From: Cenococcum geophilum | Taxonomy: Eukaryota | DNA: 64,000 nucleotides | Direction of reading: 5' to 3' | NCBI GenBank assembly: GCA_050273025.1 | Contig: CP158635.1 | Location: 14,570,001-14,634,000 of the forward strand | In this document: one piece after another, positions 16,300-62,979 of the stretch | Layout of the letters: each line of letters begins with the position of its first letter | How positions within the stretch are numbered: the stretch's first letter is position 1 | Position numbers and translations under genes: made by a program | Notes under the pieces: model-generated | The model's input: only the letters and a program-made list of their open reading frames with translations | Databases searched by the model: none | What the model was told of the DNA's origin: nothing

Positions 16300-19200
16300 T
16301 GTTAAAATAGGTATAGTTTAATAATTATTTTTATTGAGCATACATATCTAAGAGGGTGGGGAAGCGACAATTATATAGAAGAGTGTCAGAGGTTCCACCC
16401 GATAAGAAGCAATACACGCTAACTAGAACCTACTTTAATAGCCCCCCTTAAGCTAAATATAGGTAACAATATGAAGGTCATAAGAGACGTTAATATCTCT
16501 CTAAACCTAAAGCATCTCTAAATGCATAGAATGCATCTTTTAGCAGTGCCTTAGTGAAACCATCAGCTATTTATTAACTTGTTTGTATATATTCTAGCTT
16601 AATATCTCCGTTTATAATCTTCTTCTAAATAAAGTAATATTGGAGAGTAATATGCTTAGTTTAAGCATAAAACTTAGGGTCTTTTATAAGAGCAATAGCA
16701 CCTTAATTATTGGCGTAAATAATTGTTATGTAAGGGGATTTATTAGTTAGAGATAGTTTTTAAAGGAGTTGTCGTAACTAAATAGCTTCTTTTACTATAA
16801 CTGTCTGTGCTATATACTCTGCTTTATAGGTTAAAAGTGCCACCGTAGGTTGGCGCTTTAAGGACTAGCTAATTGCACCGCTTCTAATATTAAACACAAA
16901 TCCTAACGTTAATCTTTAAGTTTCTAAATTATCTGCCTAGCTAGAGTTTATAAACCCCCGAAGCGCTTATATCTTTCCTTAGAGGATAAGTTAGAGGTTA
17001 AGTGTACCGCATAAGTAGGAAAGTATTTAAAGAATAGCTTGTATATAAGACTTATTGGGATTAGAAGTAAAGCGACTAATAAGGGAGACGGCGAAGGCGA
17101 TATTAGGTTAAGTATTGAGCATAGCGTATATTAGGGTGCCAACTAGCGATTAGTATTAAGTCTTAAATATAGAGTTAGCCTAATAATCTACCGCTGCTAG
17201 TTAAAGACAAGAGGTTCCTATTGGCGTAAGGTAAGGGGAACAGTTTTAAAGACTAGCGCTATAAATAGCCTCTTTAAGGTAAGAGAATTGGCTAAGCCGT
17301 AGTTTACGGAGTTATTAATCTTAAGTTACTTTTATACTAAGGTAATAAGTAATAGGGCCTAGATTGGTTATGCTAAAGCGTCCGCTAAGTTAAGCTTTAA
17401 TAATCTTAATGTTAATAATATCTGGTTTAATAAGTAGGAGGTTATTAACGTAGACTATAATATATATGGAACCTTTAGCGAAGACTAAAGAGTTAGAGTT
17501 AAGGGGTTTAAAACTAGCATTTATAAGGAACTCTGAGAGCGTTTAATGCCAAACTTAAGGCGACTATTTAAGACCGTAAAGTGCTTTGTTTAGACAATAA
17601 ACCCGTCTAGTTCTATTATTAAAACCTTTAGGTTGATTAACGTAGATCTCCTCCTTAACGCTTCCGTAAAGGAAAGCGGTCTTAATATCTATTTATTTAA
17701 TCTTAAGGTCTTATATAGCTGCGATAGCAAAGAGCGCTTTATAGCTTATAGGTTTCACAACAAACGCGAAGGTCTTATTAAAGTTAACCCTAGCTTATTA
17801 TTTATAACCCTTTACTACCTACCTTACCTTATATTATATAATCCTTCCTTTACTATCCCGCTTATGCTTAAAAACCTATTAGGCGTTAAGAACTTTATAA
17901 TTAAGAGGTTAGTTAATAAGTGTCTAGGTGTTATTTACTTTATAAAAGCTGATTTCGTCTTTACTAGTGGAGTACTATTTATTATTATTAATATTAAGGG
18001 TAGATTGTTTCTATAACCTTAGCTTATAAGGTTTAGCTATAGGGGAGTTACTAAGTATAGTATAGAGGTGTTTAAAGGAAGGGGTTAAGAAGTAGGCAAG
18101 CGCTAAGAATGCTGCAATAGGTGGGTTTTCTCTAATGTCGACAGAATTGCGATACTTAAGAGGTAGTTAAGGCCTATTAGTAGCTGCTAGACGTTTTGAC
18201 TTCCGTAGGGGTGTCTTATTAGTAGCAAGGCGCTTTAATTTTTAAGCTTTCTTAAGGAGCTATTTCTCTTCTTAATACTGTTTACATCGGGTAGCGTAAT
18301 TAGGTGGAACTTCTTCTCCCTTAAATTAAGCGTTAATATCTAGAGTATTGGAGTTATATTTAACATATTATTCTTAAATTTAACGCTTATTACTACTAGG
18401 AACTGTTAAAACAGTCTCTTAGAAGTGGACAGCTAAGGCACGTATAAGCCGTCCTATCTCTTTATCTTAAATTTAAATAATATATTTACCCTTAAAGCTA
18501 ATAAGGTTCCCTAATCTTACCTTCTCATCTATATAAGAGCTAAACTTCTTCTAACTGCCGGCCCTGTACTAGATATCGCACCTAAAGGTGTAAATTTAGG
18601 AGTAATTAAAGACTTCGCCTTGCTCTATTTTATAGGGGGTTTGTATTTCCAACGATTTAATAGGGAGGATATTTTGTATAAAGTTAGTATGCTTAACTAC
18701 TTCTGGCTAGAAGTTCTTAGGAAGTAAGTAATTATTTATAAAGGTAAAGGCTCGGTTATATATTATGCGATTAAGTCGTTTTAAGGCTTTATTTTATTAT
18801 TAACTCTTTAGGGTCGAGTATAAGAACTAAATTCCCTTATTTGCAAGTTCTAGCTAAAAAGCATATCTAAGATATTCTCCTCCGCCATTACTATATAGCC
18901 GTAAGATAAGACTTCCTTGTTGTTTAACCTTTGCTTAATATTATTAAAAATAGAATAGGACTTTAGCCTTATACTTTATTAGATAGACTTTACTTATTTT
19001 ATTAACTTTATCTTAAAAAGTAATAAAATATCTTAATCTATTATAGCTAGCTACTTTTATAGGTCCTTTAATATTAGAGAATATGACTTCGTAAGGCTTA
19101 GTATTATAGTTAATAAGAGAATCCCAATATATAATATCGTGCATTCTGTTACATAGGTAGGCTTTATAGGTGCAGTCGTAAAGGTTTAGTAAGTGAGTAA

Positions 19201-22098
19201 AGTCTATCCCTTTTAATATTCTTTAGAGCTTTTATAAGTTCTAGGGGCTAATATAACTGAGCCTTTTATGCCATAACCTCTTGGCTGGGTTTCGTGAGCT
19301 GCTATATAATATATGGCTGGTTTAATAGCCAACTATAAAGGCTATAAGCCCTTCTTAATAGTCAGCCTAAGTATAGAGAAAGAAGAGGCCGGACTTACGA
19401 AACGCGTAAGCTATAAGCTCTAAGTTATAGAGAAAATCGCATCTAAGGTTAGATAGATAAAGATAAACTTAATTATCGATAAGCTGTAAACTAGATACTA
19501 GGTTGGCTTATAAATTAGGGACGTAAAGGATGTTAGTAAGAATAAGCTCTCTTTTAACTCTTAGAACTATAAGTCTTAAGTATATATCTTCCTTTCCTAT
19601 TAACTAGAGACACGTTTCTCTAATTCCGGAGATAATAATCTTCTTATTAGCTTAAAGATCTTAATAGGTAATAAATAGCTCTCTTGACCGAAACATGTGC
19701 TAAGTATACTTAGTATTAATAATAATTGCAGAGGAAAGGTTAATATTTAGTTTAGCTATAAAATAAAGTTATCTAGTAAGTTTGGAGGTATAGGAGCGAG
19801 GAGGAATGCGAATAATATAGGAAACCCGCCACTAATAGGCAATAAGGTATAGTTAGCAAAGTAGGTTATGTGTAAAGTAGCGTAAGTTCTTCTATAGGTT
19901 ATATACGTAGGCTAATAGTTTCTATGCTAATAGTAAAGGTTAAAGGGCAATCTGTATAAGCAGTAAAAGACTATAAAAGAAGAATAGTATACCGGCTATA
20001 AAGAGTCTAAAGGGAATAAATAAAAAATAATATAAGAGTAAATGGATCTGTGGTAAAGAACGTCTAATATAATCGGAAATACAGGAGTTTCGGCTACGAT
20101 TATTAAGGTGCAATTATAGCCTAGTTAGCTTGCTATAGAGTTAAAGCTTTTATAGCTACCTTATTTGTTGCTAGACTATAGTTAATTAAATAGCCATTTT
20201 TATATATTGCCTTAATTTAGTAAGAGGCTTGCCATTTATTGTTGTTATTAATAGTGCTATAGGTAATAATATAGATCCTAATAAGGAGTTGCTCTAATGG
20301 GCTCTTTATTATTTTCTAAAGTCCCTTTTATAAGTAGAGCGCGTATCCATCTCTACAGCTTTCTTAGGGTTTTTCTTTTGCTAGATCTCCTTTAAGTGGG
20401 GTTAAAGGATCTAGTATCTGTCTTCCTAGTAGCCAGCGCGTTTATATGGCCTACAATATAGTCTATTATATTATTATTAGCCTTACTAATTGTAATACTG
20501 CTAGCGGTAAGAGGCTTAATTTGTGTGTACTTAGAAAGCTACTAGTTAACTTTAGAGCATAAGTTGCTCTTGTATATGGGTAAGGCCCTAAACTTTTAAG
20601 AGAGTAAGGGTCTCGTTAGTAAGGGAGTGTGTAAGGTAAAATAATTCTTACTAGCTGTTAAAAGCAGGACTGAGACCATTAATAAACTTAGAGAGTAGGT
20701 TTATTCGGTCTATAGTATGGTTTTAGGTCTTAAGGTCTAAGTATATCTCCTTAAATTTAATAACGTATTCTTTAACGTTCTTATAGTTTGCGAGAGTAAG
20801 GTTTCACTATTTAGCGCATATTTTAGCGTGTGTTGCGTCTCCTTTTGGCTTAAATTCCGCGTGTAAGATTTTTATTATATTCTTAATTTCGATATAGTCT
20901 TTAATAAGGTTCTATCTGCGAGTACTATAGGTTATAGAGATGCAGTTTATTCCCTTAAGTTGCTTTCTCTTTTAAGCTTTAAGATCCGCCTAATAAGTTT
21001 TAATAAGTTTATTATAAGCGTCTCTCTTAACCTAAAGTTGGTTTATGGCTAGTCTGGCTCCTAGGTTAACTAGAGCGTCTAAATTAAAGTTATTCTTAAT
21101 TAGCCACTACCTGGTACCTTTCTTCTACTTCTTATAGTCTGTAGGGCTTTTAAGTGTCTAAATATTAGAGAGATTAATATTGGACTTAGAGTATTTAATT
21201 GCTATAATAACTTATAAGAGAGAAGCAAGTGTTTTAGTAAAAAGGTAGGAAATAATATTCTTTGGCTTATATACTATTACCTTTTTAGTATTTAGTGTAG
21301 TGCTAAGGATTTAATAACTAATAACGATAATAATGATAATAATAATGGCACTAGGAATAGTGATAGTAATAGGTAACTAAGACATTAATAGAAAACCTAA
21401 TTTAAGGTTAATAGATAGTAACAGGCAACTAAGACATAGTAAGAAAAGCTAATCTCGATTAATAGAATGTCTAAAATTTCTAGAGTGCGTATGTCTAAAT
21501 TAGAGTGCGTATATCCAAATATCCGAAATATCTAGAGTGCGTATATTTAAGGTGTCTAGAGTATATATATTTAAAATGTCTAGAGTATAAAGTGTCTGGA
21601 GTGCGTATATCTAAAATGTCTAGAATGTGTATATCTGAAGTATCTAAAGTATAAAGTATCTGGAGTGCGTATGTCTAAAAAGTCTAGAGTGCGTATATCC
21701 GAAGTGTCTAGAGTGTAAAGTATCTAGAGTGCGCATGTCTAAAATGTCTAGAGTATATATATCCGAAGTGTCTAGAGTGTAAAGTATCTAGAGTACGCAT
21801 ATCTAAAAAGTCTAGAGTGTGTATATCCGAAGTGTCTAGAGTGTAAAGTGTCTGGAGTGCGCATGTCTAAAATATCTAGAGTGCGTATATCTAAGGTGTA
21901 TCTTAAGACGTAGTATACAGGTTGCTGCGCGATAGAAGCGTCTCTGGGCTTATAACCTGTTAAAATAGGTATAGTTTAATAATTATTTTTATTAAGCATA
22001 TATATCTAAGAGGGTGGGGAAGCGACAATTATATAGAAGAGTGTCAGAGGTTCCACCCGACAAGAAGCAATACACGCTAACTGGAACCCACTTCAACA
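16300..22098 (-). mobile_element. Full-length RIP-inactivated Ty1/copia LTR retrotransposon
   Basis: 141-bp LTRs at 16300-16440 and 21958-22098; perfect TSD GTTCT; PBS GGTTAT(G>A)AGCCC next to the 5' LTR; PPT AGGGGGGC. Degenerate gag zinc knuckle, integrase (SNGGGEY), RT (KALYGLK*SP, VYVNNLL from VYVDDLL) and RNase H (TKHI, IADGFTKAL) occur in copia order. Confidence 0.95.
21465..21900. repeat. Degenerate tandem array (tctagagtgcgtatatctaaa-type units) in the copia 5' leader
   Basis: Repeated tctagagtg... units of about 15-24 bp between the PBS and gag. Confidence 0.85.
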
Positions 22099-22569
22099 GT
22101 TCTTTGTAGAGGCGGCCATCTCCTTGCATGATCGCGGAAAGTGGATGGCAGATCTCAATGTAATAAAAGCTCAATCTTCGTGGCAAAGCGCGTCTAAACA
22201 AAGCGGTTGCCAGCATACCGAGAATTAACGCGCAGATACTACAATCGCAAAGCCCCTCGTTTCTGTGGATAGTTGGATTGAGTTCCTTGACCTGCCACTT
22301 TCCGGCTGCATCGTGCGCGCTCGTGGCAATGCCATGGCACGGCTTGCTGCTGCTTCGCTAGTAGTGCAAAAGTCATACGATTTTCGACTTATTTCTCCGA
22401 GTGGTTGCTGGGTATATTTATTCGCTGAGCCCGGGGAAGAATATCCTTCGCCACCATGCGTATATTCTGCGCAGGAGAGTAATAGTGACCAGGAATCGCT
22501 GCCTGAATCTGGCGATTGGTTGTATATGACGGAAGAAGAGGAGTCAGACCCAGGTAGTCCTTTAGCACC

Positions 22570-45582: not shown

Positions 45583-46830
45583 ATGGCAGAAAATACTCAC
45601 ACAAATTTCCAACTGGATGCAGAGCTAAGCTGTTTGGCTAACGGAGCGGATATCCCTAACATCACCCATCTATCAAATCGAGAATCTCATCAAATGCTAT
45701 GGGATAGCATCTTTGGTGATTACAAATGTCTTAACAACATCGTGCAAGACTTGGCGGCGAACCCAATTCTAGTTGGGACAAGGCTTGATTCTAAGCCGGC
45801 ATATATGGTTCTAATATCTGGCGACATATCAGGTGACGTCAGTGATCTTGTTGGATTGGCGTGGCGTGGATCTGAGGCCAAATCCACGCCATCCACCAAA
45901 AAGACGATTTGCCGCCAGGATCGCCACGGCGCTCCAGTGTAGATATATACTATATATAGTAAGTCTTAGCATAGGCTTAGTGTTATAATTAAGGAGTAGA
46001 GTGTAGTTGAACTTACTAAAAAGGGTACTAGATTTGCTTACCACCTCCCTTTAAGCGTCCCTCTATAATCTTATCATCCTTAATAACTTTTACCTTATCG
46101 CTAAGTGCACCCTCTACCTTAAAGCCCCCGATTGCGTTAAACTCTTCCTTAAGGCCCTTACCCTAAGCTTTACTAACTACTATATGTGGCTAAGGCAGAG
46201 CTTCTACAGCCTTACGAGCGGCAGAGGCTTGTGCGGGTGGGCGCGGCTGGGCTTATAGGAAAATATCGCTCTATATAATTAAGGGAGGCAAAATAGAGCC
46301 ATAGCGCGATCGCGTATGGAGGAAGGATGTAGGAAGGAAAGCAATATGGGCGGCTCCCCGAGATTATATAGAAAACACTCCTATTTTTAAACTCCGAGCT
46401 CCACCGATTGGCTCAACACCACGCTTTAACACCTTATTGATCCTTCCTCCTCGGCCTCCTTCTTCTAATTGGGTATAGAACTGGCGCTCCAGGAGCTCCA
46501 AAGCTTTAAGATCCACTCCGCGCCACTAATTAAATTAGTAGATCCACCGCCAAAGCAAATTGGATCCAGCCATCCACGCCATATTGCCGCCAATCCAACA
46601 AGATCACTGGGTGACGTGACTTACACGAAGGATCTCTTCTTCAGCTCTTTAAAGCCACATAAGCATGTAGAAGGCGCAGGAGAGATCATATGACTGTGGC
46701 ATCACCCTCAATATTGCCGACATTCTACAATGCCTAGAGGTAATACCTGTGGATATACAAAAGCTACTGTACGATGGAGATGAACCTCGTTCGACTTATT
46801 TGTTCTGGAAAGACGCCGACTGCGCACTAG
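45583..46830 (+). pseudogene. Hypothetical protein gene split by a hAT insertion and frameshifted
   Basis: ...ISGDISGDV|TYTKDLFFSSLKPH... is in frame after excision. It continues as DCGITLNIADILQ...YLFWKD in another frame. Confidence 0.65.
45840..46609. mobile_element. Non-autonomous hAT element (770 bp)
   Basis: TIR cagtgatcttgttggattggcg / cgccaatccaacaagatcactg with a perfect 8-bp TSD GGTGACGT. Confidence 0.92.
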
Positions 46831-49800
46831 GAGTTCTCGAGCCACCTTCCCCTACTTATATCTTGGGGCGGAGGTAGCTAGTACTTTATTATATTATTAT
46901 AAAAACCTAGGCTTGTTCAGTATATATACCTATAAGGATAACTATTACTTCTAATAAAAATGCCGTTCTTAATTATAGAGAGCTGCTCGTTTTAAGTGTA
47001 AGTAAAAACTGTACTAAAAAGAACAGTAGATAATAAGAGCGAATGCATTTTTGGTTTGATTTTAAATTGCCAAGAATATGAATTTAAGTTAGTTTAAGTC
47101 TTATAACATTACCTAATACCTATATATCTGAATATATGGGTCTAAAAGTAGGACTGTTTAAAGGCCTGCTTTTGGGTAACTATATTAGCCTCGCTGTCGA
47201 TATAAGGTCCCAGTTTTGGTCCCTTATAAAATAATAAATTCTAAAAGCTGGGAAGTTTTCTCCCACTTAAGGTTTGTATATTATTTTTTCTTTTATTTAA
47301 ACCCTAAAACAACAACAATCTAGTCGAGTATTTTCGCAATATTTTTTTAAACCTTTGTAGCTATTTCCCTGTCTTATAACCTTTGCTAGCTGCGCTCTAT
47401 TGCCCAATACTAATATAGTAGGTAGTGGGCTTCTAAACAGTCCTCTGCCAGCGGAGATATCCGTTATTAGAGTAAAAGATATTCAATTAACACAATTCCT
47501 TAAAAATTTAGAGGTTTCGTTCTTCTTTACTAAATTTATTAATCTCTTATAGTAGGTCACAGAAGGATATTTAAACAGCTCTATAGATACTGTTAGTAGG
47601 ATTGCCACAGTAAGTTATCTTTTTCTGTTATTTAACCTCCTTTAGCTGACTTTAAGTAGCAAGAAGAGGTCTATCTTAAAACTCCTACCACTATCTTTAA
47701 TACTTATAGTGTGCTACTAACCCTACCTTATAACTATTTATTCCCAGTCTCCTTTATAAAGGAGTTCTTCAAATTAACTAATCTTATTAGCTTAGTCGGT
47801 CTCTTTACGGTTATTAGACTGTCTTAGCGTCTTACACTCTTAGATCCTTTAGCTGCGAGGCTTATTTTTTTTAAAAAATTCTTTAGTTAAATCTAGATAT
47901 AATATTTTTTTCTATAATATTTAGGAGAGATAGCCGAATCCTTCTCTATTTAATATAGGTATTAGTACTATCTAGGTATATAATATAGCTTTATTATTTA
48001 TTATACTAGGATTATATCTAGTTAAGATTCTAATTCCTATACTTCCCAAACTTATAGTGGCTAAAGTAACAATCGCTCCTTATGTAAATAGTATAAATAG
48101 CACTAGTGGATATATATTAAAAGAATTTACGTAAGACAATACGCAGATACCTTTTATTATCGAAGGGGATAAATAGCTGCTTACTGGCTAGGTAAATTAG
48201 GTCAATAAGCCTATATACTCCCTTAATAATAATAATAAGGGGAAAAGAAACAGCTAGAATGCTATAAGGGATAAGTAGGATTACTTTTATAGCTATAACC
48301 ACTAAGTAGTATAAGAATGTTAATAACTTTATACTGGGTATAATAGTTAGTTTAGCGGTTATTATAGTGTCCTAATTAAAAAGGGTAATCTAATTAATAT
48401 AATAGAAACTTTAGCGTTAATATAGTTGTAAGTAATATCTACTACTACTTAATAAGAAACACTATACCCCTAGAATACTATTAAAAATTATCTTAACTTT
48501 AATTAATATAGAATCTGTTTATATAATAAATCTTTTTAGGTATCTATTAATGCTAAAATAAGATATCTAGACATTGATACGAGAAAGGACTAATTTGTGG
48601 CTTAGCGAGTATTTTTAACAACTACGCTAAATGCTTGACTTATTACAGTCTAAGAAAATATAAATAAAAGGAAATATAGCAGAATATACAAGCTCGGTAT
48701 AAGGCATTATAGCGTTAATAAAACAAAATCTAAAGTCTATAATCTAGGACTTAAAATATAAGTTTAGGTAGAAATCCGTATTAAGATAATAAGTATTATT
48801 TTATTAATTATTAATCTAAGCTAGAATATTAAGTCTTTATGCCTATCTAGTATAATTAAGGTCGATATTTAATAATTCATTGCTTAACGTCCGATTTAGA
48901 TCCCTATTGGGCCCACGCGGACTACTCCTTATTTACATATAGGGAGAAAACTCTATTTAAGAAAAATGAGAAAACCCCGTGATCCATCTCCCTGCCTTTT
49001 GGGACTCGCCTACTTAGCGCCTACAAGTCGCCTATAGTGCTCTACTACCTTACTGTTTAACCTCCTTAGGAACTACTGCTGCCGTAACAAGCCTATGGAC
49101 GCGCTAGTATTACAAACTATTACTCTACTACTGTAGAGTTACTAAGGGGCACCTACTGCTTGCCCCCTTGCCTTCTATTACCATTTCCCTTATAACCTGG
49201 AACTAATTTAGCATATTTTAACTAATAAGCCACTAGGTAACCGCCTTAAGGCCTTTTTATATTAAGAGCAGTATATTATAGTTCTCTATGCTAGCTACTA
49301 AGAGCATTATTTCTTAATTGGTGCGTAGGGGGCATAGCAGTATTACGTATTTTGGTGTCTATTTTAGCTAGCCACATTTACATCTTAGGCTACCTATTAG
49401 GACACCCACCTAGTAAAGCTAATCTTTTAGTCCTATTATTCCTGTTCTTAAGAGTGTTGCTATTATATTTTCTACCTTTATTAGGCCTTCTCAGAGCCCT
49501 TAGGTATTTACCCCCTATAGCGTTAACTATGCTATAGCTTAGGTTTATCTTACCTAAGTTAGCCTCTATACCTTTAACTTCTATTTACCTCTCTAGCGTT
49601 AGTCTAACCAGTATTATATTATAGTAGATGGTTTCCTAGCGTTCTTATATATTCTACTTTAGCTCCTTTCTCTATTTTGCTGTTATCTTTACTAACCTCT
49701 TACACATCTCCCTTTTTCCTTTATATAGGCCTAGGCCCTAAAGCGGTACTATTCTTTTTTTGCTTTCTTTACCTATTTCTCTAATATCTCTTCCCTACTT

Positions 49801-52800
49801 TAGGGTTGTTGGTTTGTTCTCCTATAGGGCACCCTAGGGTCCCTCTATAGTTTACTTAGGCGTGTCTTAATGTACTTTATAATATTAGAGTTATATTTAT
49901 TTTGCGTCTTTTATATTACAGCGGCTTTAATATATAACTATAGGGGGGGAATATTGGATTCCTTCTTAAGCAGTACTATAGCCGTTCGCTTATACCCGCC
50001 TATAATACTCTAAAGGTAGGCTATTTAGACCTTTTAAAGTAGTTTAAGAAGTGATTTAGGGGGGCCCTTCTTAGTTTCTCTAATGGCCTAAATACTAGAT
50101 CTATATGTTATAGTTAGCTAAATAACTGCTATATATAGTAGGCGTGACCTTTAGAAGTATAGACCCTATATAGAATTAACAATCCTGGATAAAGCGATAA
50201 ACTATACTTGGCCTTTACGGGCCGCTTACGCCGCATATACGCTCTACCGGAGCTTACTATCTACCTATACTCCTAATACCCTTAGGCCCTAAACTAGTTA
50301 ACCCCTAAAGCCTTAAATGCGAATTATATACTAGAGATCTATAAATTAGTTATATTTTCTTATAAAATGGATTAGCTGGTATTTCTCTAGTAAGAATTAG
50401 ACTTTATAACGTTTTACCTATTCTATATAAGTATTATAGGCTTTCTCTAGTGTTCTACAATTCTCTACGGCTATTAGCCCGTATATAATTAGGTTTATAT
50501 TATTAATAAAGCCTATCCCCTAGGTTACCCCTTCCTTAAAGAAATTAAGTAGGTTACTTATAAAGAAAAGGAAGAGTATAGGTAAGAGGGGTAATTCTTA
50601 TAGTATTCCTGTTGCAACTATAATAGGGGGGCTCTGGTATCCGCTAAAGACTAGTAATGTTTCTTTCTAGCCTATAAACCCTTAGATAAATTATATAATC
50701 TATTCTAAGAAGCCCTTTGCCCTAAGGATATGCAGGAGACGCTTATGGGGTATATTGTTATAGGCACCACTAATATTTAGGCTAAGTATTAATACTATAA
50801 AGTCCTTTCGCATCGCCTATATAGATTTAATGGTGGCAGTAAGTAGCGTAAGTGCTAATAGTGTTAAGCGGTTCTTTCTTACCCCTATTTAGCTTTATAG
50901 TAGTAGGGCGTGTTCCTCTACCGTATCTACTATACGTTCCGCTATTACCCTTTTTAAGATCTTGCTAAGGGTGTTTTTTAAGGCAATAGGGCGGTAGCTT
51001 TCTGGGATTAAGTAATCTACTTTGCCTTCTTTTTATAAGATAACCGTTGTTATAGATCTTCCAAGTTATGGGTAGTAGCCTATAGCAAAGTATACTCTGG
51101 CTACATCTATAAGCTAAGGTACTATAAGTGGCCCATAGGTTTTTAGGGCCTTATTTGGAATCCTATTTAGTCCTAGTGCTATATTATTTAAAAGGCGGCT
51201 AATGGTTCTAGCCATTTCCTCTATTATTATGTCGCTGTTAACCCATAGGCGAGTTACCAGTGTTTTGCCCGTAATATTACTAAGGTCTGCTAGAGCTAGT
51301 TAGGGGAAGAACCTTTCTGTAAGGATCTTTGCCTTCTTATCGTTATTGTTTATGGCCTGTGATTCTCCTACTCTTCGTAGGGGTGGTAGGTGTGGGTCTT
51401 CTGCTAGGCGCCCTGCCTTTTTCTTTACCTATTTCGCTATAGCCCAAAGGCCCTTGTTATGGGGGAGGCTCGGGTTAGAAGTATGCTCGTTTATAAACCG
51501 TCTCCAGTTATTCCTTGCTTCTTTTTTTAGGGTATTCTTTAGCTAGTTTCTTGTGAAGGTCGATATTTAAGCTGCTAAAGTGTCTTAATCTACCTTCTCT
51601 AATTAGGGATTCCTATTATAAATGCCAAAGTATAAAATTTTCTATATATTTAGTCCGCTTCCTTTTTTCCTTCTAATATATCCTTCTAACAGAGTTCCGC
51701 GAGCCTAAAATAAGATAATAGGCGGTTTAGGTTATTTTCTAAGACATAGCTTTAGTCTTTAACAGCTTGTCTTTCTTAGCGAAGTAGCATTATTTTCTCT
51801 TCCTCAAGTTCTTTAGGTGTTGGAAGTAGAGCGTTAAAATCGATGTATTCCGGGTTGAAGTAAGTAAGCACTATAGGAGGAAGAGACTATTGATCTATAA
51901 TTCCTTTTGTAATAGCCTCTATAGAAACGTTATAATAGAGCCAGCTAGCCTTTTTATAGAGTCCTTTCCTTTCGTAAAGGTTAGCGAGATTAAATTCTAT
52001 CTTTAGCATTATTTAATTGTTTGGTTGGATATAGCAGCTAGCAAATCTTAAAAGCTTTTACTTTAGCTCTAGTTAAATAAGTTCTAATTTATTAGGTGGA
52101 AAAAAGATAAAGTACTTAAATATTAAGTAAGGGATTCTATTAAGATTAATTAATTATAATAATAGACGTATTCCTAGAGCTTAGAAGGGTTGTATTTAAT
52201 AGTAGAAAGCTAAAAAAGAAGAGTAGTAGAGATTAGTGTATAAGAAGACGAAAGTAAAAAGGCTGTTTAACAGCTTTATATAGACTTTATTAACTCTATT
52301 ATATATTTATAGTTATATTAGTAAACGCCTAATAACGCGTTTAATCTATAATTAAGGGCGAAAAAGCCTAGTTAATTATCTATCCTTATTTTATAAGCCG
52401 TGCTTAATATTAGTACTATACTCCATCTACTCGCGAGATATAATACCTATTATAAACTAGATAGTCCCTTTTATACAAACTGTGTATAGCCTGCAATCTA
52501 AGGAGCCTTAGAATATTACTAAATGCTACGCCATTATTACTTTAGGCATTTATTATAACAAAAAGACAATTAACTATAGCATTACTTAGGCAGAATAATA
52601 ATAAAGCGGCCTTTGCTTTTATGTGGTTTTTATCTATTATATTGTTTTATATTATTTATAGCTTAGCACAATAGTATATAGCGCTATATCCTTCTATCTG
52701 TTATATATAGATTATAGTTATACTAAGAACGAAGTACAGGCTGTTACCTAATATAGCGATATTAAAAGGCTTAGCCTTTAGAGAGATAGGCTTAAGGCGA

Positions 52801-53700
52801 AGTATCTATAACCTAATAAACATTAAACCTATCAGAGGATCTTTAATACTTAACTATAACCTAATATATTAATATAAAACCGGAATAGATTATCTTTAGT
52901 ATTGCTCCTTTAACGGTAAGCTAACTCCTTATATATAATAAATATAAAGCCTATCTTGTAGAGGCATTAATATACAGTTTTAAAAACAATAGCTTATAGC
53001 CTACTAGTTTATAGCTATCGGATTATATAAGGATTAAACCTTTAGCTTAGGCTCCTTAGGTATAAAGAGCTGTGGTTTAAATCTTAGAGATTATTTAATG
53101 TAAATACTTCTTAATTTATTACTCTATACGCAATAAGCCTAATAGATTATTAAGGATATAGCAGCCTACATTTCTAATTACACCGTTAGTCTACTTTCTA
53201 TATTGCAAAAGGAAAGAATAGAATACTACGCGGCATCTACTCTCCCTAAAAGTATAATAAACATATAAGTAAAGCCTATAATAGTATAACATGGCTCTAA
53301 GCGTAAGCAGTATAGATTACTTCTTCCTAGGATTAAATTAATATATATTTTCACCTAAAGACGACCTATTTAGTCTCGGCATGCTCCTAACTATTACTGC
53401 TATTAATACTTACTGCGACTATAGAGAGCTAACGGAAAACACGTTTCAACCTTATATTAGGTTATCCTCTACGCCCACTAAATTGCCCGCAAGTTAATCT
53501 ATGTATACTATTAAGGGAATGCAGCCTATTATAGACTTGTCATTCTTAACGGGTAATAGGTGTCTATTAAGAGAGAATGCGACTACTAGGATTCTAGAAA
53601 ATGCCGGCGATAAGGCCAAATGCTCTAGTATTAGCTAAACCAATTGAGGAGGGGGTGTCCGTATATCAGTTAGGGGGTGTCCGCATATCAATTAGGGGGT
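46830..53700. repeat. RIP-degraded block with relics of unidentified genes; hosts a LINE
   Basis: Strong TpA enrichment. An intron-containing relic ORF lies on + at about 47460-48430, and a relic ORF on - at about 52010-51590. The block ends in 22-bp direct repeats gggggtgtccg(t/c)atatca(g/a)tta at ~53652-53700. Confidence 0.6.
48873..51555 (-). mobile_element. 5'-truncated Tad1-like LINE, RIPed
   Basis: RT motifs PESYRPIAL.NTLSK, GI(PQ).(S)PL(S)PILFLFF and FINN (from FVDD); C-terminal C-x-C...H...C knuckle; 15-bp TSD AAGGTCGATATTTAA (48858-48872 and 51556-51570). Confidence 0.9.
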
Positions 53701-54751
53701 GTTAATTTACCGCTGGCCTAGAATATACCCCTCGCTGAATTAAAGAATTACCGATGCTTCCAGTTTCCTTATGTGGAGTGTTTCAAGCCGGAGGATTGAG
53801 GCACCGATAATTTTTCATGATTTCTCACTAACCATAAGTCTCTTATCTATTCACAGTCCTCTCACAACTTTGAATACTGGATTACTATGGCTCAAGAGAA
53901 AATAGCAAATGTGGCAGCACTTCCTCCTCATCCGATTGGTCTTTGAAGTCCAAGCCATGTCCGATGATTCTAAATCTTGGAGACAAATTCTTCACATCTA
54001 GAGGCCGTTTAATTTTTCCAAGAATAACAAGTGATGCCACCACGGCTCGTCGCTAATAAGGATGCAGCCACGCACACGACCGTGTTTTATTTTATTTTTC
54101 AATCACGCATGCGCTTGCATATCCGGCGCCAGGGGTCCCAATAATGAATGAATGAATAAGTTGGCCACTTATCGCATCGTATTCATAAGAGAGCCGATTT
54201 ATCGCGATATGAATAAACAATCGCGATACTGCATACATAGGTAGAGGCTATATAATCAGTCCTGGCATGGTGTTGTAGCGATTTGCTGTAGTCGACATTG
54301 TTTTAGAATCCTCTAACCCCCCTTCTTATTGCTTACCATCTGCTCTTGCGTATATATTTAAACAAGCGGCGTACAATTAATACTATACACACACCTCAGT
54401 ATCCTTTACTACACCACAAGGCTTTACGTTTCCGACATATATTCATAAGGATTTCAAAATATTCAATCATTATCACTGCTTATGAATGGATGTATCGTTA
54501 GGAACCAATGGATAAAATTACCGTTGGGGCCCCTGGAATCTATTCGTCGTTTTTACAACCCGTGTATACTCCTACAGAAGCCAGATACTAGTTGCATCCG
54601 TGCGGAAACGCCAACTTCCAGAGAAAATCTCTGTGCTGGTGCGGTATCCATTCTGGTCCCGAGGCAAATCCAGCTAGGCATGTTGGCTGCTGGACACGAC
54701 AGACAGGCAACAGCTTCATAGTTCAAAGGCCAGTTTGCTACTGGGGCGGGT

Positions 54752-59649: not shown

Positions 59650-60070
59650 AGCTTTAGGTAGAGCCTCGCGCAGAGCTTTAATAAAGCCTTATGTAGAGCT
59701 TTAGTAGAGGCTTACGCAGAGCCCTACGCAGAGCTCCGCGTAGAGCTTCGTGCAGAGCTTCTGCAGAGCTTCGTGCAGAGCTTCGTGCAGAGCTTCGTGC
59801 AGAGCTTCGTGCAGAGCTTCGTGCAGAGCTTCGTGCAGAGCCTCGTGCAGAGCTTCGTGCAGAGCCTCGTGCAGAGCTTCGTGCAGAGCCTCGTGCAGAG
59901 CTTCGTGCAGAGCCTCGTGCAGAGCTTCGAGCAGAGCCTTGTGCAGAGCTTTGAGGAGCTTAAGCAGAGCTTTAAGCAGAGCTTCGAGTAGAGCTTTAAG
60001 TAGAGCTTCGAGTAGAGCTTTAAGTAGAGCTTCGAGCGGAGCTTTGTGTAGAGCCTTATATAGAGCTTTA
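59650..60070. repeat. 12-bp minisatellite (gcagagcttcgt)n
   Basis: Near-perfect core at about 59745-59930, with degenerate RIP-like copies on both flanks. Confidence 0.95.
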
Positions 60071-60177
60071 TATAAATATATAGGCGTATAAATATATATT
60101 TTTATACTAGTAATTAATTATAAAATTTATAGAAATAATTATATAGGAAATTATATAGATATTTATTAATTTATTTA

Positions 60178-62872
60178 TAGTAAGGCTAATAATACTATAC
60201 GGCTCCTAGATCTAGGGCCTAGGAATAAGTAGTAAGGTATTAATAAAAAGCTCCTTAGCGCTATTAGCTAAGCTATAAATCTAGTACCTATATAGAACTA
60301 TAGGGGTTTATAAGAGAATATTACGCGCTATACTAGAATATAAAGTAGTAGTTCTACTAGTAGATGTAAGAGTATATATATTAGGTCCCGCCGCGCTTGC
60401 GACAAGTTCGCAAGCACTCTCAGTCTTTTTGGCCGTATGGCGACGTGGAGGCGGGCCACGTTACAATTGTGCTTGCGAACTTACCGGGGCCAGGTGTTGT
60501 GGGTTCGATCCCCAGCGGTTACTTTACTCTAGTACAGTCTAACACGCATCCGTGCGATGAGGCGGGTCGGCTGAGTCCGATTGCTTATGTTACTGGGGAC
60601 TAACTAATATAGTGATACTCTTGGCGTTTGATCCCTGTGGAGGCCCGAGAACGGGCGCACAGAGGAATCCCTGCGAGCGCTCGGGGACGAGCGCGCAGAG
60701 GAGAGGGCAATTGTAAGAGTATATATATTAGGTCCCGCCGCGCTTGCGACAAGTTCGCAAGCACTCTCAGTCTTTTTGGCCGTATGGCGACGTGGAGGCG
60801 GGCCACGTTACAGTAGACTTATATATTAATATAACTACTATATAGAGAATAGTTATAGTATAAGGCTACTTAGTAAAAGAAAATATATGCTAAATACTAA
60901 AACGTATGTAAGGATTGAGGGCCCCTTAAAAAGGCAATACGCCTAAGTATACTAGCTAGGAAGCCCTCTACCTATAAGTAGTAAAGAAAGAAAAGAAAAT
61001 ATAGGAACTATTAGCTTACTAGGTGGAGACCTAGCGCTATACTAGTAGAGATCTACTATACTTATTACAAAATAGGTAGACCTTAAATAGAAGCGATAAT
61101 AGAAGGAGGTAGTAAAAATATAAGACGTAGCTATATAGAATACCCTATAGTTAATACTAATACTCCTCCTATATAAAGGACTAATAAAGGTAAAATCTAT
61201 ATCCGCCTTCCTACTATAGATAGAGATTTTAAGCCTAAATATATAGCTAGTAAGTATCTATATTCTAAATACTATACCTTAATACACTTATAGATAGCCT
61301 ATTTAGTTAGTATACTATATACTACTTTTCTATAGCTACTACTTAGTAAGGTACTAGCTATTTACTAGTATAGGTATAAATTATATTACTTATACTCTCT
61401 ATAAGTAGGGGCCTATAAGTAGTATTAATATAGCTTATAGGCTAAGGAGTTTTTTAGTAGTTCTAAATAGTATATAAGATCTAATAGGAAGACACTAAAG
61501 GATATACCCCTTTTAGCCCCTTAGAGACTAAATACTGCTGCCTAGCTGTAGATAGTACGCTAATAAATTACTAGATACTCCTACTACCCCCCTTAGATCT
61601 TCTAATATACCTAAAAAGTATAGTATATAAGGTAGACCTAAAGATATAAAGATATATTAGTTTGGTAAAGGTAGAATATATAAAACTAACTAAAAGGAAA
61701 TACTTAGGATTTTCCCTTTATAAGGCCTTTTCCTATAAAGGGAAAACCCTAAGTATTTCCTTTTAGCTAGTTTTATATATTCTACCTTTACCAAACTAAT
61801 ATATCTTTATATCTTTAGGTCTACCTTATATACTATATTTTTTAGGTATATTAGAAGATTTAGAGGGGGGGGTAGTAGAAGTATCTAGTAATTCGCTAGC
61901 ATACTACCTACATCTAGGTAGGGATATTTAGTCTTTAAGGGGCTAGAAAATGGAGTACCCTTTAGTATCCTCCTATTAAATCTTATATACTATTTAGAAC
62001 TATTAAAGAACTTCTTAGCTTATAAGCTATCTTATTACTACCTATAGGCCTCTACTTATAGAAAGTACTTAGGTAATATTGTTTATGCCTATACTAGTAA
62101 ATAGCTAGTACCTTACTAAGCGGTAACTGTAGAATAGTAATATATAGCGTATTAACTAAATAGGCCACCCGTATATATATTAAGGTAAGGTATTTAAAAT
62201 ATAGATGCTTACTAGCTATATATTTAGGCCTAAAACCTCTATTTATAGTAGAAAGGCAACTATAGATTTTACCTTTATTAGTATTAACTATAGGGTGTTC
62301 TTTATAGCTGCGTCTTATATTTTCGCTACCTCCTTCTATTATCGCTTTTATTTAAGATCTACCTATATTATAATTAGTGTAGTAGATTTCTATCTATATT
62401 AGTAACCTTTTATCCTCTATTACTATTATAGCGCTCTAATAGTATAGCGTTAGGTCTCCGCCTAGTAAGCTAATAGTTTCTATATTTCCTTTTCTCTCTT
62501 TACTACTTATAGGTAGTAGGCTTCCTAGCTAGTATATTTAGGCGTATTACCTCTTTAAGGAGCTATCGCTTCTTATATATATATCTTATTCCTTATATAT
62601 ATTTTAGTATTTAGTATATATTTTCTTCTACTAGGTAGCCTTATACTATAACTACTCTCTATATAGTAGTTAAGTTACTATATAAGTCTAGTAGTAGAAC
62701 TACTACTTCGCGTTTTAATATAGCGCGTAGTATTCTTTTATAGGCCCCTATAGTTCTATATAGGCACTAGTTTTATAGCTTAGCTAGTAGCGCTAGTAAG
62801 CTTTTTACTAGTACCTTACCGCCTAGTCCTAAGCCCTAGATTTAGGAGCCGTATAGTATTATTAGCCTTACT
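60178..62872. repeat. Large RIPed palindrome with ~1.1-kb arms and a loop of at most 11 nt at about 61723-61733
   Basis: The centre reads ...ttttccctttata aggccttttcc tataaagggaaaa.... The arms match out to gtaaggctaataatactatacggctcct / aggagccgtatagtattattagccttac. Confidence 0.9.
60365..60812 (+). mobile_element. 448-bp miniature non-autonomous LTR retroelement (TRIM-like)
   Basis: Identical 101-bp LTRs TG...CA (60365-60465 and 60712-60812), perfect TSD GTAGA, 246-bp non-coding interior, and a purine tract agaggagaggg before the 3' LTR. Confidence 0.93.
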
Positions 62873-62979
62873 ACTACTATATATAGTAGGCGTATATATT
62901 TAAAAGAGGGTCCTTATATTAAGGTAGTAATTTATAATACTACCAAAAATACTACTACTTCTCTATAAGTCGCCTATAT

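What the first reader, a model, noticed from the sequence alone, without database searches (positions are those of the whole stretch)
60404..60482. Self-complementary primer-binding site suggests tRNA-independent self-priming
Seen: 3 nt after the 5' LTR lies GTGCTTGCGAACTT (60469-60482), the exact 14-nt reverse complement of AAGTTCGCAAGCAC inside the LTR (60404-60417), about 25 nt downstream of a TATATATA box. There is no TGG-type tRNA PBS. The same LTR segment can alternatively fold with GCTTGCGA just upstream, a possible switch. Established: Tf1/sushi-type fungal Ty3/gypsy elements self-prime by pairing the transcript 5' end with the PBS. Inference: this mini-element borrows RT and integrase from such a partner. 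It could prime from the 5' end of a Pol II transcript or from the 3' part of the putative Pol III transcript.
Basis: partly seen in the sequence, partly recalled or inferred. Interest (0 to 1): 0.75.

Follow-up and report, generated by a model that had tools for sequence, protein, structure and literature searches.

The report
Self-complementary primer site in fungal mini-retroelement
A 448-base, gene-less jumping element in a fungal genome carries, where a tRNA would normally dock, 14 letters that pair perfectly with its own terminal repeat, so it probably primes its own copying as yeast Tf1 does, although the RNA data available do not show the predicted RNA start.

Summary
Window 60365-60812 is a young TRIM-like LTR mini-element. 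It has identical 101-nt LTRs (TGTAAG...GTTACA), a 5-bp target duplication GTAGA, a polypurine tract and no ORF. Three bases after the 5' LTR, GTGCTTGCGAACTT (60469-82) is the exact reverse complement of LTR 60404-17, which begins 31 nt after a TATA box (1 of 20,000 shuffles reaches 14 nt). The element belongs to a large family: 137 further LTR copies in metagenome loci, 73 of them solo LTRs with duplications, and two internal-region types. The pairing is perfect in 17 of 23 copies. The other six carry one-sided transitions, and there is no compensatory change. In diverged relatives the primer site is unchanged; in one the LTR arm keeps only a 10-nt core. No tRNA explanation was found, but the host tRNA set was unavailable. 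Element-encoded (Tf1-type) priming is the best reading, at about 0.55. Stranded RNA reads of a relative put the abundant sense RNA 5' end near 60441, not 60404. One snap-back copy ends at 60431. The proposed hairpin switch is broken in many copies. No Tf1/sushi partner was found; chimeric insertions point to a second LTR family as a possible co-packaged partner. This is a new variant of known kinds, of moderate interest.

The parts
60360..60364 (+). Left copy of the 5-bp target-site duplication, GTAGA
   Evidence: The same 5 nt recur at 60813-17. Empty-site paralogue from arms I2/I7.
60365..60465 (+). 5' LTR, 101 nt, TGTAAGAG...CACGTTACA
   Evidence: D3: 100% identical to 60712-60812. 137 further complete copies in metagenome loci.
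60373..60381 (+). TATA box, TATATATAT
   Evidence: Lies inside the 20-mer used for the scan, so its invariance carries no information.
60395..60402 (+).
   Evidence: Polymorphic: A.C mismatches at 60399/60411 in 41 of 138 LTRs and at 60401/60409 in 21 of 138.
60404..60417 (+). AAGTTCGCAAGCAC, the candidate self-primer: exact complement of the PBS, starting at a C|A step 31 nt after the TATA box
   Evidence: Most frequent variant 11 of 138. A 10-nt core TCGCAAGCAC is kept in a roughly 10% diverged relative.
60426..60430 (+). Run of five T, nearly invariant. A possible end of R or a terminator (inference)
   Evidence: 134-136 of 138 keep T. The snap-back copy L052 ends just after it, at 60431.
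60443..60461 (+). U5 hairpin ACGTGG-AGGCGGG-CCACGT (6 bp)
   Evidence: Fold. Pair counts (114-136 of 138 intact per pair). G-C to T-A double change at 60447/60457 in a run variant.
60466..60468 (+). ATT spacer between LTR and PBS
   Evidence: ATT in all 23 family copies.
60469..60482 (+). Primer-binding site GTGCTTGCGAACTT
   Evidence: No variant at 5% or more among the listed rows in any of 4 runs, while 60483, 60485, 60486 and 60488 vary (18 further rows were not shown).
60499..60515 (+). T-arm-like hairpin with a B-box-like GGTTCGATCC. Not a detectable tRNA
   Evidence: no tRNA. Alignment: type 1 pairs GTGGG/CCCAT, type 2 pairs GTCGTG/CACGAC.
60466..60711 (+). Non-coding internal region, 246 nt, type 1
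   Evidence: only one ATG ORF of 31 aa overlaps the element; alignment.
60697..60707 (+). Polypurine tract AGAGGAGAGGG, followed by CAAT
   Evidence: A purine-rich tract ending in CAAT precedes the 26 LTRs classed as 3' LTRs in the loci; this was the criterion used to class them.
60712..60812 (+). 3' LTR
   Evidence: D3.
60813..60817 (+). Right copy of the target-site duplication, GTAGA

Best explanation
The element is a young, non-autonomous, TRIM-like LTR retrotransposon. Its minus-strand primer is encoded by the element itself, not by a tRNA. An RNA whose 5' end is AAGUUCGCAAGCAC (LTR 60404-17) anneals to the PBS (60469-82). By analogy with Tf1, the RNase H of a borrowed reverse transcriptase cuts at the end of the duplex, and the 14-mer then primes synthesis through ATT and U5.

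Shown: the anatomy, the exact and bounded complementarity, its conservation, the U5 hairpin, the absence of a tRNA-type site, sense transcription across U5-PBS, and recent mobility of the family.

Inferred: that an RNA begins at 60404, that it is cleaved, and that RT and integrase come from a partner. The TATA spacing and the sharp 5' edge of the complementarity both point to 60404.

The abundant RNA starts further downstream, near 60441. The replication-competent RNA would therefore be a minor species, as is reported for Tf2 in wild-type S. pombe, or a separate short RNA.
For: - Exact 14-nt complement 3 nt after the LTR. 1 of 20,000 shuffles reaches 14 nt, and the Copia control in the same window gives 5 nt.
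- The minimum-energy fold of 60395-60500 contains the 14-bp helix and the U5 hairpin (z = -1.83; 5 of 200 shuffles fold as well).
- Pairing is perfect in 17 of 23 family copies with a 5' LTR and PBS, across both internal-region types.
- In 4 sequencing runs no listed variant at 5% or more falls in 60458-60482. Within 60404-19 the listed ones are 60406 G>T and 60407 T>A (one contig each in X1 and X4; 60407 also in 2 of 22 X21 reads). Sites just outside vary: 60399, 60420-22, 60456/57, 60483-88 (18 further rows were not shown).
- The complementarity begins exactly at a C|A step 31 nt after the TATA box.
- No tRNA was found by ARAGORN in the window or in 60 loci, and there was no Rfam match to the LTR or PBS.
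- In wild-type S. pombe, Tf2 transcription starts downstream of the LTR and gives an RNA that cannot support reverse transcription (passages of PMC5341516).
- The family was mobile recently: identical LTRs, 73 solo LTRs with 5-bp duplications, and an empty-site paralogue.
Against: - RNA: in the stranded raw reads of X21, depth is 28 on 60370-97 and 29.5-29.7 on 60398-60425. There is no step at 60404. 25 of about 28 reads at the LTR start come from the PPT/3' LTR junction.
- Depth then reaches 164-224 at 60454-81. Second mates carry unaligned left parts of only 17 nt (42 reads) or 8 nt (35 reads), which places the abundant sense RNA 5' end near 60440-42. This is my inference; table 6 of that call lists no start site, and these reads come from a type-2 relative with a variant LTR.
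- Contig depths of X1 and X4 show the same step.
- The snap-back copy L052 implies a minus strong-stop DNA that ended at 60431.
- No compensatory change was seen. The 6 deviating copies carry one-sided transitions.
- One roughly 10% diverged relative keeps the PBS but has AATATCGCAAGCAC in the LTR, so only 10 contiguous pairs remain.
- The host tRNAs and other small RNAs could not be searched.
- No autonomous self-priming partner was found in 224 kb examined.
Confidence: 0.55

Rival explanations
1. The LTR arm lies in U3, because transcription starts at about 60431-41. It therefore sits only near the 3' end of the genomic RNA. Its pairing with the PBS would be a 3'-5' long-range interaction that brings the RNA ends together, or the 3' copy would be cut to give the primer, in cis or from a co-packaged RNA.
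For: The abundant sense RNA 5' end is near 60441, and depth is flat across 60404. L052 snap-back ends at 60431. Reads cross PPT into U3, so the 3' copy of the arm is transcribed (25 reads). Recalled, not from a call: Ty1 CYC5/CYC3 and the bipartite Ty3 PBS are 5'-3' interactions that involve U3, and trans priming has been proposed for Tf1.
Against: This reading does not explain why the complementarity stops exactly at 60404, 31 nt after the TATA box. A primer cut from inside a long RNA would let plus-strand strong-stop synthesis copy beyond the 14-mer, yet nothing beyond 14 nt is complementary. If the duplex is only a cyclisation signal, no other primer site is visible. The RNA data come from one sample of a variant element.
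Confidence: 0.17
2. The PBS binds a host RNA, such as a tRNA fragment or another small RNA. The matching LTR segment would be a captured copy of that primer or a coincidence.
For: Fungal TRIMs of the Helenus group use tRNA anticodon-loop primers (PMC10886601, Results read in full). The Copia element in this window has a PBS, GGTTATAAGCCCAGAG, that looks like a half-tRNA-iMet site (the tRNA match is recalled). The host tRNA set could not be examined.
Against: The 14-mer cannot be placed on a canonical anticodon, T or D arm: no U33 with a paired stem, no A58, no G18G19 (my reasoning from standard tRNA numbering). It does not end in CCA. No tRNA was found in the window or in 60 loci. There was no Rfam match at E up to 10. 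A host primer gives no reason for an exact copy in the LTR at TATA+31.
Confidence: 0.1
3. The three copies of GCTTGCGA (60395-402 on +, 60408-15 on -, 60471-78 on +) are protein-binding half-sites of a palindromic promoter element, and the match to the PBS position has nothing to do with priming.
For: The LTR arm is one half of an imperfect palindrome, GCTTGCGA-CAAGT-TCGCAAGC, between the TATA box and the observed RNA starts. TTGCG/CGCAA resembles bZIP half-sites (recalled).
Against: The upstream half-site is freely polymorphic. The PBS copy matches the LTR arm over 14 of 14 nt and not only over the 8-nt core. It sits exactly 3 nt after the LTR, where every LTR element has its PBS, and no other PBS candidate exists.
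Confidence: 0.08

Closest known systems
Tf1, Tf2 (Schizosaccharomyces pombe) and Tj1 (S. japonicus): self-primed Ty3/gypsy elements of the Tf1/sushi group. [quoted passage not shown]
   Same: The PBS lies just after the 5' LTR, is complementary to a segment of the LTR rather than to a tRNA, and has a U5 hairpin between the two. The host is fungal and the target duplication is 5 bp (passages of PMC6934838, PMC4600332, PMC5341516; the 11-nt length, the RNase H cut and the U5-IR requirement in Tf1 are recalled).
   Different: There is no gag or pol, and the whole element is 448 nt with 101-nt LTRs. The duplex is 14 nt. The RNA 5' end at the self-primer is not shown, and the abundant RNA starts about 37 nt further downstream. 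Relationship to the Tf1/sushi clade cannot be tested without a protein.
TRIMs (terminal-repeat retrotransposons in miniature), mainly of plants and some animals
   Same: Less than 1 kb, terminal direct repeats of about 100 nt, PBS and PPT, no coding capacity, many solo LTRs (definition quoted in PMC6934838).
   Different: Described TRIMs have a PBS complementary to a tRNA. This one pairs with its own LTR. My four literature searches found no paper that describes a self-primed TRIM in fungi.
Helenus / TRIMp3 (Kojima 2024, PMC10886601)
   Same: A fungal TRIM with 5-bp duplications and a tRNA-like motif (B-box-like GGTTCGATCC). That paper explicitly raised and tested the idea that an element-borne small-RNA-like sequence might prime.
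   Different: Helenus carries the tRNA-like sequence inside the LTR, uses tRNA anticodon-loop or 3'-end primers, and showed no complementarity between that LTR sequence and the PBS. Here the T-arm-like hairpin is in the internal region, no tRNA model matches, and the PBS does pair with the LTR.
Ty1 CYC5/CYC3 and the bipartite Ty3 PBS
   Same: A sequence near the PBS pairs with a sequence in U3 at the other end of the RNA.
   Different: Those elements still use tRNA-iMet as the primer, and the complementary boxes lie beside the PBS rather than in place of it.

Membership tests
TRIM (non-autonomous miniature LTR retrotransposon) | Total length under 1 kb with terminal direct repeats of about 100-250 nt | tested here: met
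   448 nt with 101-nt LTRs 100% identical. Family members are 443-486 nt.
TRIM (non-autonomous miniature LTR retrotransposon) | No coding capacity, with a PBS after the 5' repeat and a PPT before the 3' repeat | tested here: met
   Only a 31-aa ATG ORF. PBS at 60469-82. PPT AGAGGAGAGGG at 60697-707.
TRIM (non-autonomous miniature LTR retrotransposon) | Insertion by integrase, shown by target-site duplications and solo LTRs | tested here: met
   GTAGA duplication, empty-site paralogue, 73 solo LTRs with 5-bp duplications.
TRIM (non-autonomous miniature LTR retrotransposon) | PBS complementary to a tRNA (as in the published definition) | tested here: not met
   No TGG-type site. The 14-mer fits no canonical tRNA arm (reasoning). 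No tRNA found. The host tRNA set was not available.
Tf1/sushi-type self-primed LTR retrotransposons | [quoted passage not shown] | tested here: met
   14 of 14 nt, 3 nt after the LTR. Perfect in 17 of 23 copies.
Tf1/sushi-type self-primed LTR retrotransposons | The complementary segment is the 5' end of the element's RNA (start of R) | tested here: inconclusive
   TATA+31 and the C|A step fit. RNA reads of a relative show no step at 60404 and an abundant 5' end near 60441. Only one sample was examined, and short RNAs are not captured.
Tf1/sushi-type self-primed LTR retrotransposons | Stem-loop in U5 between self-primer and PBS (U5-IR; the requirement is recalled) | tested here: met
   6-bp stem 60443-48/60456-61. 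One G-C to T-A double change in a run variant.
Tf1/sushi-type self-primed LTR retrotransposons | Primer released by an RNase H cut at the end of the duplex | not testable with these tools
   Needs cDNA intermediates or biochemistry.
Tf1/sushi-type self-primed LTR retrotransposons | RT and integrase of the Tf1/sushi chromovirus clade | not testable with these tools
   The element has no ORF and no autonomous partner was recovered. The whole genome is not held, and records behind the loci could not be searched.
Helenus / TRIMp3 | tRNA- or 5S-derived sequence with A and B boxes inside the LTR | tested here: not met
   ARAGORN found 0 genes. Rfam gave no tRNA at E up to 10 in the window element or in 4 family loci. 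The B-box-like motif lies in the internal region.

The most novel reading that the evidence does not exclude
Each LTR, including the many solo LTRs, would be a tiny gene driven by the TATA box and ended by the run of five T. Its product would be a primer RNA of about 23-27 nt, 5'-AAGUUCGCAAGCAC...UUUU. This RNA would be supplied in trans to the abundant RNA that starts near 60441 and carries the PBS but not the primer. Priming of reverse transcription would then be separated from the genomic RNA and shared across the family.
Probability: 0.08. Interest if true: 0.8.

Novelty: new variant of a known kind. Interest (0 to 1): 0.42.

Why it matters
Self-priming is known for autonomous fungal Ty3/gypsy elements, and TRIMs are known with tRNA primer sites. 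A gene-less 448-nt element that carries its own primer would show that the whole cis-acting apparatus of self-primed reverse transcription fits in about 120 nt: promoter, primer, U5 hairpin and PBS. That would make a compact natural substrate for studying the mechanism. The family is abundant and recently active. It has left informative by-products, namely a snap-back copy and insertions with two unlike LTRs, which record strand-transfer errors and point to a co-packaged second family. Earlier notes of this scan report look-alike self-complementary mini-elements in several other fungal genomes. The type may therefore be widespread yet undescribed, which also means that this single case is not a surprise.

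Tried and rejected
- Whole-genome search: no genome is held for this window.
- Searching the metagenome records behind the loci for reverse transcriptase: not held.
- Scan of viral contigs with the PBS 16-mer: 38 matches, none with an LTR context and none with the complementary 14-mer upstream. These are chance hits.
- Search for the PBS outside the family in 224 kb (window plus loci): only the family's own LTR arms and PBSs were found.
The repeat with stops read as X failed because the output was too large and I did not try again. From the translations printed in that error I recognised, by eye only, a Copia-type RT/RNase H in 16-22 kb (minus strand) and a LINE-type RT in 46.5-54.5 kb.
- That Copia was rejected as partner. 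Its termini are TGTTG...TAACA and its PBS is different.
- Covariation test: the family is too uniform, with no compensatory change in 23 copies. The diverged LTR subfamily occurs only as solo LTRs in my loci.
- Short ORFs beside LTR-X showed nothing recognisable.
- Rfam hits to miRNA models at 61665-61791 are a long AT-rich hairpin of the flanking repeat, all below gathering scores.
- Chance was rejected as an explanation.
Full report
**What is there**

Window 60365-60812 is a complete miniature LTR retroelement.
- Two 101-nt direct repeats, 60365-60465 and 60712-60812, are 100% identical and run TGTAAGAG...CACGTTACA.
- They are flanked by the 5-bp duplication GTAGA at 60360-64 and 60813-17.
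- The 246-nt internal region has no ORF beyond a 31-aa ATG frame.
- It ends in a polypurine tract, AGAGGAGAGGG (60697-707), followed by CAAT.
- The element sits in an AT-rich, heavily mutated inverted repeat. The other arm of that repeat (62585-62690 abutting 62687-62882, arms I7 and I2) lacks the element. This gives a paralogous empty site.
- The element itself is GC-rich and unmutated, so the insertion is young.

**The observation**

AAGTTCGCAAGCAC lies at 60404-17 in the LTR. Its exact reverse complement, GTGCTTGCGAACTT, lies at 60469-82, three bases (ATT) after the LTR.
- One search found 3 exact matches in the window. At up to 2 mismatches 0.32 are expected, and 0 of 100 shuffles gave 3.
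- In my own control, 1 of 20,000 dinucleotide-preserving shuffles of the LTR gave a complement of 14 nt or more to the first 20 nt after the LTR. The Copia element of the same window gives 5 nt.
- The pairing ends sharply on both sides.
- The LTR arm begins at a C|A step 31 nt after the first T of TATATATAT (60373-81).
- Folding 60395-60500 as RNA gives the 14-bp helix plus a 6-bp hairpin, ACGTGG/CCACGT (60443-48/60456-61), in the loop (-40.5 kcal/mol; z = -1.83; 5 of 200 shuffles fold as well).

**The family**

No whole genome is held. One metagenome scan used the 20-mer at the LTR start. Positions 60366-85 are invariant in these copies by construction.
- BLAST with the LTR found 143 hits, of which 137 were complete copies.
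- I classed them as 73 solo LTRs with a 5-bp duplication, 23 5' LTRs followed by the PBS, 26 3' LTRs preceded by the PPT, and 15 others.
- Every two-LTR element is miniature: 15 complete ones of 443-486 nt.
- There are two internal-region types. Both share the LTR, ATT, PBS and PPT.
- 20 of 24 listed public runs, from 19 studies, hold half or more of the element's sampled words.

**Conservation of the pairing**
- Among the 23 copies with a 5' LTR and PBS, 17 keep 14 of 14 pairs.
- Six deviate: L041, L051, L059, L078, L089 and L108. Each deviates by transitions in one arm that are not answered in the other. There is no compensatory change, and the family is too uniform to offer one.
- In L041 both LTRs carry the same C>T in the arm, so that change was present when the copy inserted. 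It leaves a G.U pair.
- Across four runs laid on 60300-60711, no listed variant at 5% or more falls in 60458-60482. The sites just after the PBS (60483, 60485, 60486, 60488) and just before it (60456, 60457) vary. Eighteen further rows of that table were not shown.
- In the LTR arm, the listed variants are 60406 G>T and 60407 T>A (one contig each in X1 and X4; 60407 also in 2 of 22 X21 reads). Sites beside the arm (60399, 60420-22) vary.
- That variant differs from the window at 12 positions plus one insertion over 120 nt. It keeps the PBS unchanged, so 10 contiguous pairs remain.
- The same variant changes 60447 G>T together with 60457 C>A. This keeps one pair of the U5 hairpin as T-A, a single compensatory event.
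- A further LTR subfamily (L037, L039, L082, L106) changes 3-4 of the 14 arm positions. It is present only as solo LTRs in my loci, so its PBS is unknown.

**tRNA and other RNA explanations**
- ARAGORN finds no tRNA in the window or in 60 loci.
- Rfam gives nothing on the LTR or PBS at E up to 1.
- At E up to 10 there is no tRNA in the window element or in four family loci.
This is my reasoning, not a call.
- The host's own tRNAs could not be examined, so this rival is weakened but not excluded.
- This matters because fungal TRIMs of the Helenus group use tRNA anticodon-loop primers. Their author looked for complementarity between the LTR's tRNA-like sequence and the PBS and found none (PMC10886601, Results read).

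X21 is a stranded RNA run kept as raw reads. It gave 263 laid reads, of which 229 were second mates. At the PBS, 223 lay in one direction against 1 in the other. On the usual library design this means sense RNA.
- Depth is 28 over 60370-97, 29.5-29.7 over 60398-60425, 22 over 60426-39, 31 over 60440-53, 164 over 60454-67 and 224 over 60468-81.
- 25 reads at the LTR start continue leftwards into the PPT. The U3 reads therefore come from 3' LTRs.
- There is no step at 60404.
- The reads over the PBS run on into the type-2 internal region (213 reads, median 105 unaligned letters). Their left unaligned parts are only 17 letters (42 reads) or 8 letters (35 reads). I infer an abundant RNA 5' end near 60440-42 in these variant elements.
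- Table 6 of the call lists no start site, so this remains an inference.
- Summed contig depths of X1 and X4 rise at the same place. The DNA run X8 shows the opposite profile, with the LTR far above the internal region.
- Independently, locus L052 holds a copy with the duplication GAACC. Its left end is the inverted complement of LTR 60431-65, joined at a GGCC palindrome to the last 8 nt of the LTR, then ATT and the PBS. This is what a minus strong-stop DNA ending at 60431 would give if it folded back on itself. It fits either a template 5' end at 60431 or a pause before the T run.

**Weighing the evidence**

These results do not refute self-priming.
[quoted passage not shown] The LTR start that includes the self-primer is exposed only in mutants or under stress (passages of PMC5341516).
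- A short RNA ending at the T run (60426-30) would not appear in such a library.
- Two independent features still point to an RNA 5' end at 60404: the TATA spacing and the exact 5' edge of the complementarity. In a self-primed element the PBS is recopied from the primer, so a primer that ends at the RNA's 5' terminus explains both a sharp edge and a perfect 14 of 14 match. Meanwhile the neighbouring 8-nt arm GCTTGCGA (60395-402) drifts freely.
- I therefore keep element-encoded priming as the best explanation, at 0.55, with the start at 60404 marked as inferred and currently unsupported.
- The main rival, at 0.17, places the arm in U3. Its pairing with the PBS would then be a 3'-5' interaction, or the 3' copy would donate the primer.

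**The proposed hairpin switch**

GCTTGCGA (60395-402) does pair with 60408-15. However, 41 of 138 LTRs have an A.C mismatch at 60399/60411 and 21 of 138 at 60401/60409. Only 5 and 4 double changes occur, and these sit at sites prone to C>T/G>A mutation. The hairpin is not maintained, and if transcription starts at 60404 it is absent from the RNA's 5' end. I do not support a switch.

**The partner**

No autonomous element with this LTR or PBS was found.
- The PBS occurs in the 224 kb examined only within the family.
- The window's 5.8-kb Copia (LTRs 16300-16441 and 21958-22099, minus strand, duplication AGAAC) has other termini and a PBS, GGTTATAAGCCCAGAG.

A lead did emerge from a second LTR family.
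- L012 is a single insertion with duplication GATAC. A paralogous uninterrupted site lies in L019 1432-2186.
- Its 5' LTR is a different 331-nt repeat, which I call LTR-X: TGTAAGAGGCC...CCGTTACA followed by ATTG. Its 3' LTR is the mini LTR, and there is an internal deletion at a microhomology.
- L009 has LTR-X, ATT, a mutated PBS, a type-2 internal region and a mini LTR.
- Unlike LTRs in one insertion are what an intermolecular plus-strand transfer between two co-packaged cDNAs would give. This is inference.
- LTR-X shares the terminal 8 and 7 nt and the ATTG with the mini-element. It has no complement longer than 7 nt to the mini PBS.
- More distant LTR-X copies (L032, L004) are followed by ATTGCCTCCCCTTCT, a different sequence.
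- Whether LTR-X elements encode proteins is unknown.

**Comparison with what is known**
- The element works most like Tf1, Tf2 and Tj1, and like the filamentous-fungal elements for which self-priming is proposed (passages of PMC6934838, PMC4600332, PMC6317226, PMC2864245).
- By anatomy it is a TRIM, except for the tRNA-complementary PBS of the published definition.
- It is not a Helenus/TRIMp3 element.
- Four full-text searches found no paper that describes a self-primed TRIM in fungi. One TRIM paper, on bivalves, only mentions self-priming as a possibility.
- Earlier notes of this scan report similar self-complementary mini-elements in several other genomes. They are unchecked AI notes and are not evidence for this case, but they suggest that the type is recurrent.

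**Verdict**

The feature is real, and it is a new variant of known kinds. The mechanism is plausible but its key prediction is not yet met. Interest is moderate.

Noticed in passing
L052:592-1000: An aberrant family copy with target duplication GAACC. Its left end is an inverted copy of the last 35 nt of the LTR, joined at a GGCC palindrome to the last 8 nt of the LTR, then ATT and the PBS. It looks like an integrated snap-back product of minus strong-stop DNA that ended at the position equivalent to 60431.
   Followed up: partly
L012:461-1005; L009:821-1517; L019:486-817: Insertions with two unlike LTRs: a 331-nt 'LTR-X' (TGTAAGAGGCC...CCGTTACA) at the 5' side and the 101-nt mini LTR at the 3' side. 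L012 has the duplication GATAC and a paralogous empty site in L019 1432-2186. This suggests that two element families are co-packaged and that strand transfer occurs between them.
   Followed up: partly
L032:1-387 (minus strand) and L004:1445-1820: In diverged LTR-X copies the sequence right after the LTR, ATTGCCTCCCCTTCTAAGG, is the reverse complement of a polypurine-tract-like sequence ending in CAAT. Its meaning is unknown.
   Followed up: no
window 60499-60515 and the alignment: A T-arm-like hairpin with a B-box-like GGTTCGATCC lies just downstream of the PBS. The two internal-region types keep a hairpin there with different pairings: GTGGG/CCCAT in type 1 and GTCGTG/CACGAC in type 2. No tRNA model matches.
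   Followed up: partly
window 16300-22099, minus strand: A 5.8-kb, heavily C>T/G>A-mutated Copia-type element. It has 142-nt LTRs 95% alike, target duplication AGAAC, and the PBS GGTTATAAGCCCAGAG, which resembles a half-tRNA-iMet site (the tRNA match is recalled). RT and RNase H motifs were recognised by eye only. Tandem repeats of 24-64 nt at 21469-21963 lie just inside its 5' LTR.
   Followed up: partly
window about 46500-54500, minus strand: An AT-rich block whose read-through translation shows LINE-type reverse-transcriptase motifs. These were recognised by eye in the printout and not confirmed with any profile.
   Followed up: no
window 59726-60050: A tandem array of a 12-nt unit (GCAGAGCTTCGT and variants, 21 or more copies) about 300 nt upstream of the element.
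   Followed up: no
window 60169-62882: The element sits in one arm of a large, degenerate inverted repeat with arms 84-94% complementary. Its centre is a 145-nt-arm hairpin at 61578-61878, which gives spurious sub-threshold matches to several miRNA models.
   Followed up: no
L037, L039, L082, L106 (LTR copies): A diverged LTR subfamily, 79-83% identical, with 3-4 changes inside the 14-nt LTR arm. Only solo LTRs were seen. Full-length members would allow the decisive covariation test.
   Followed up: partly
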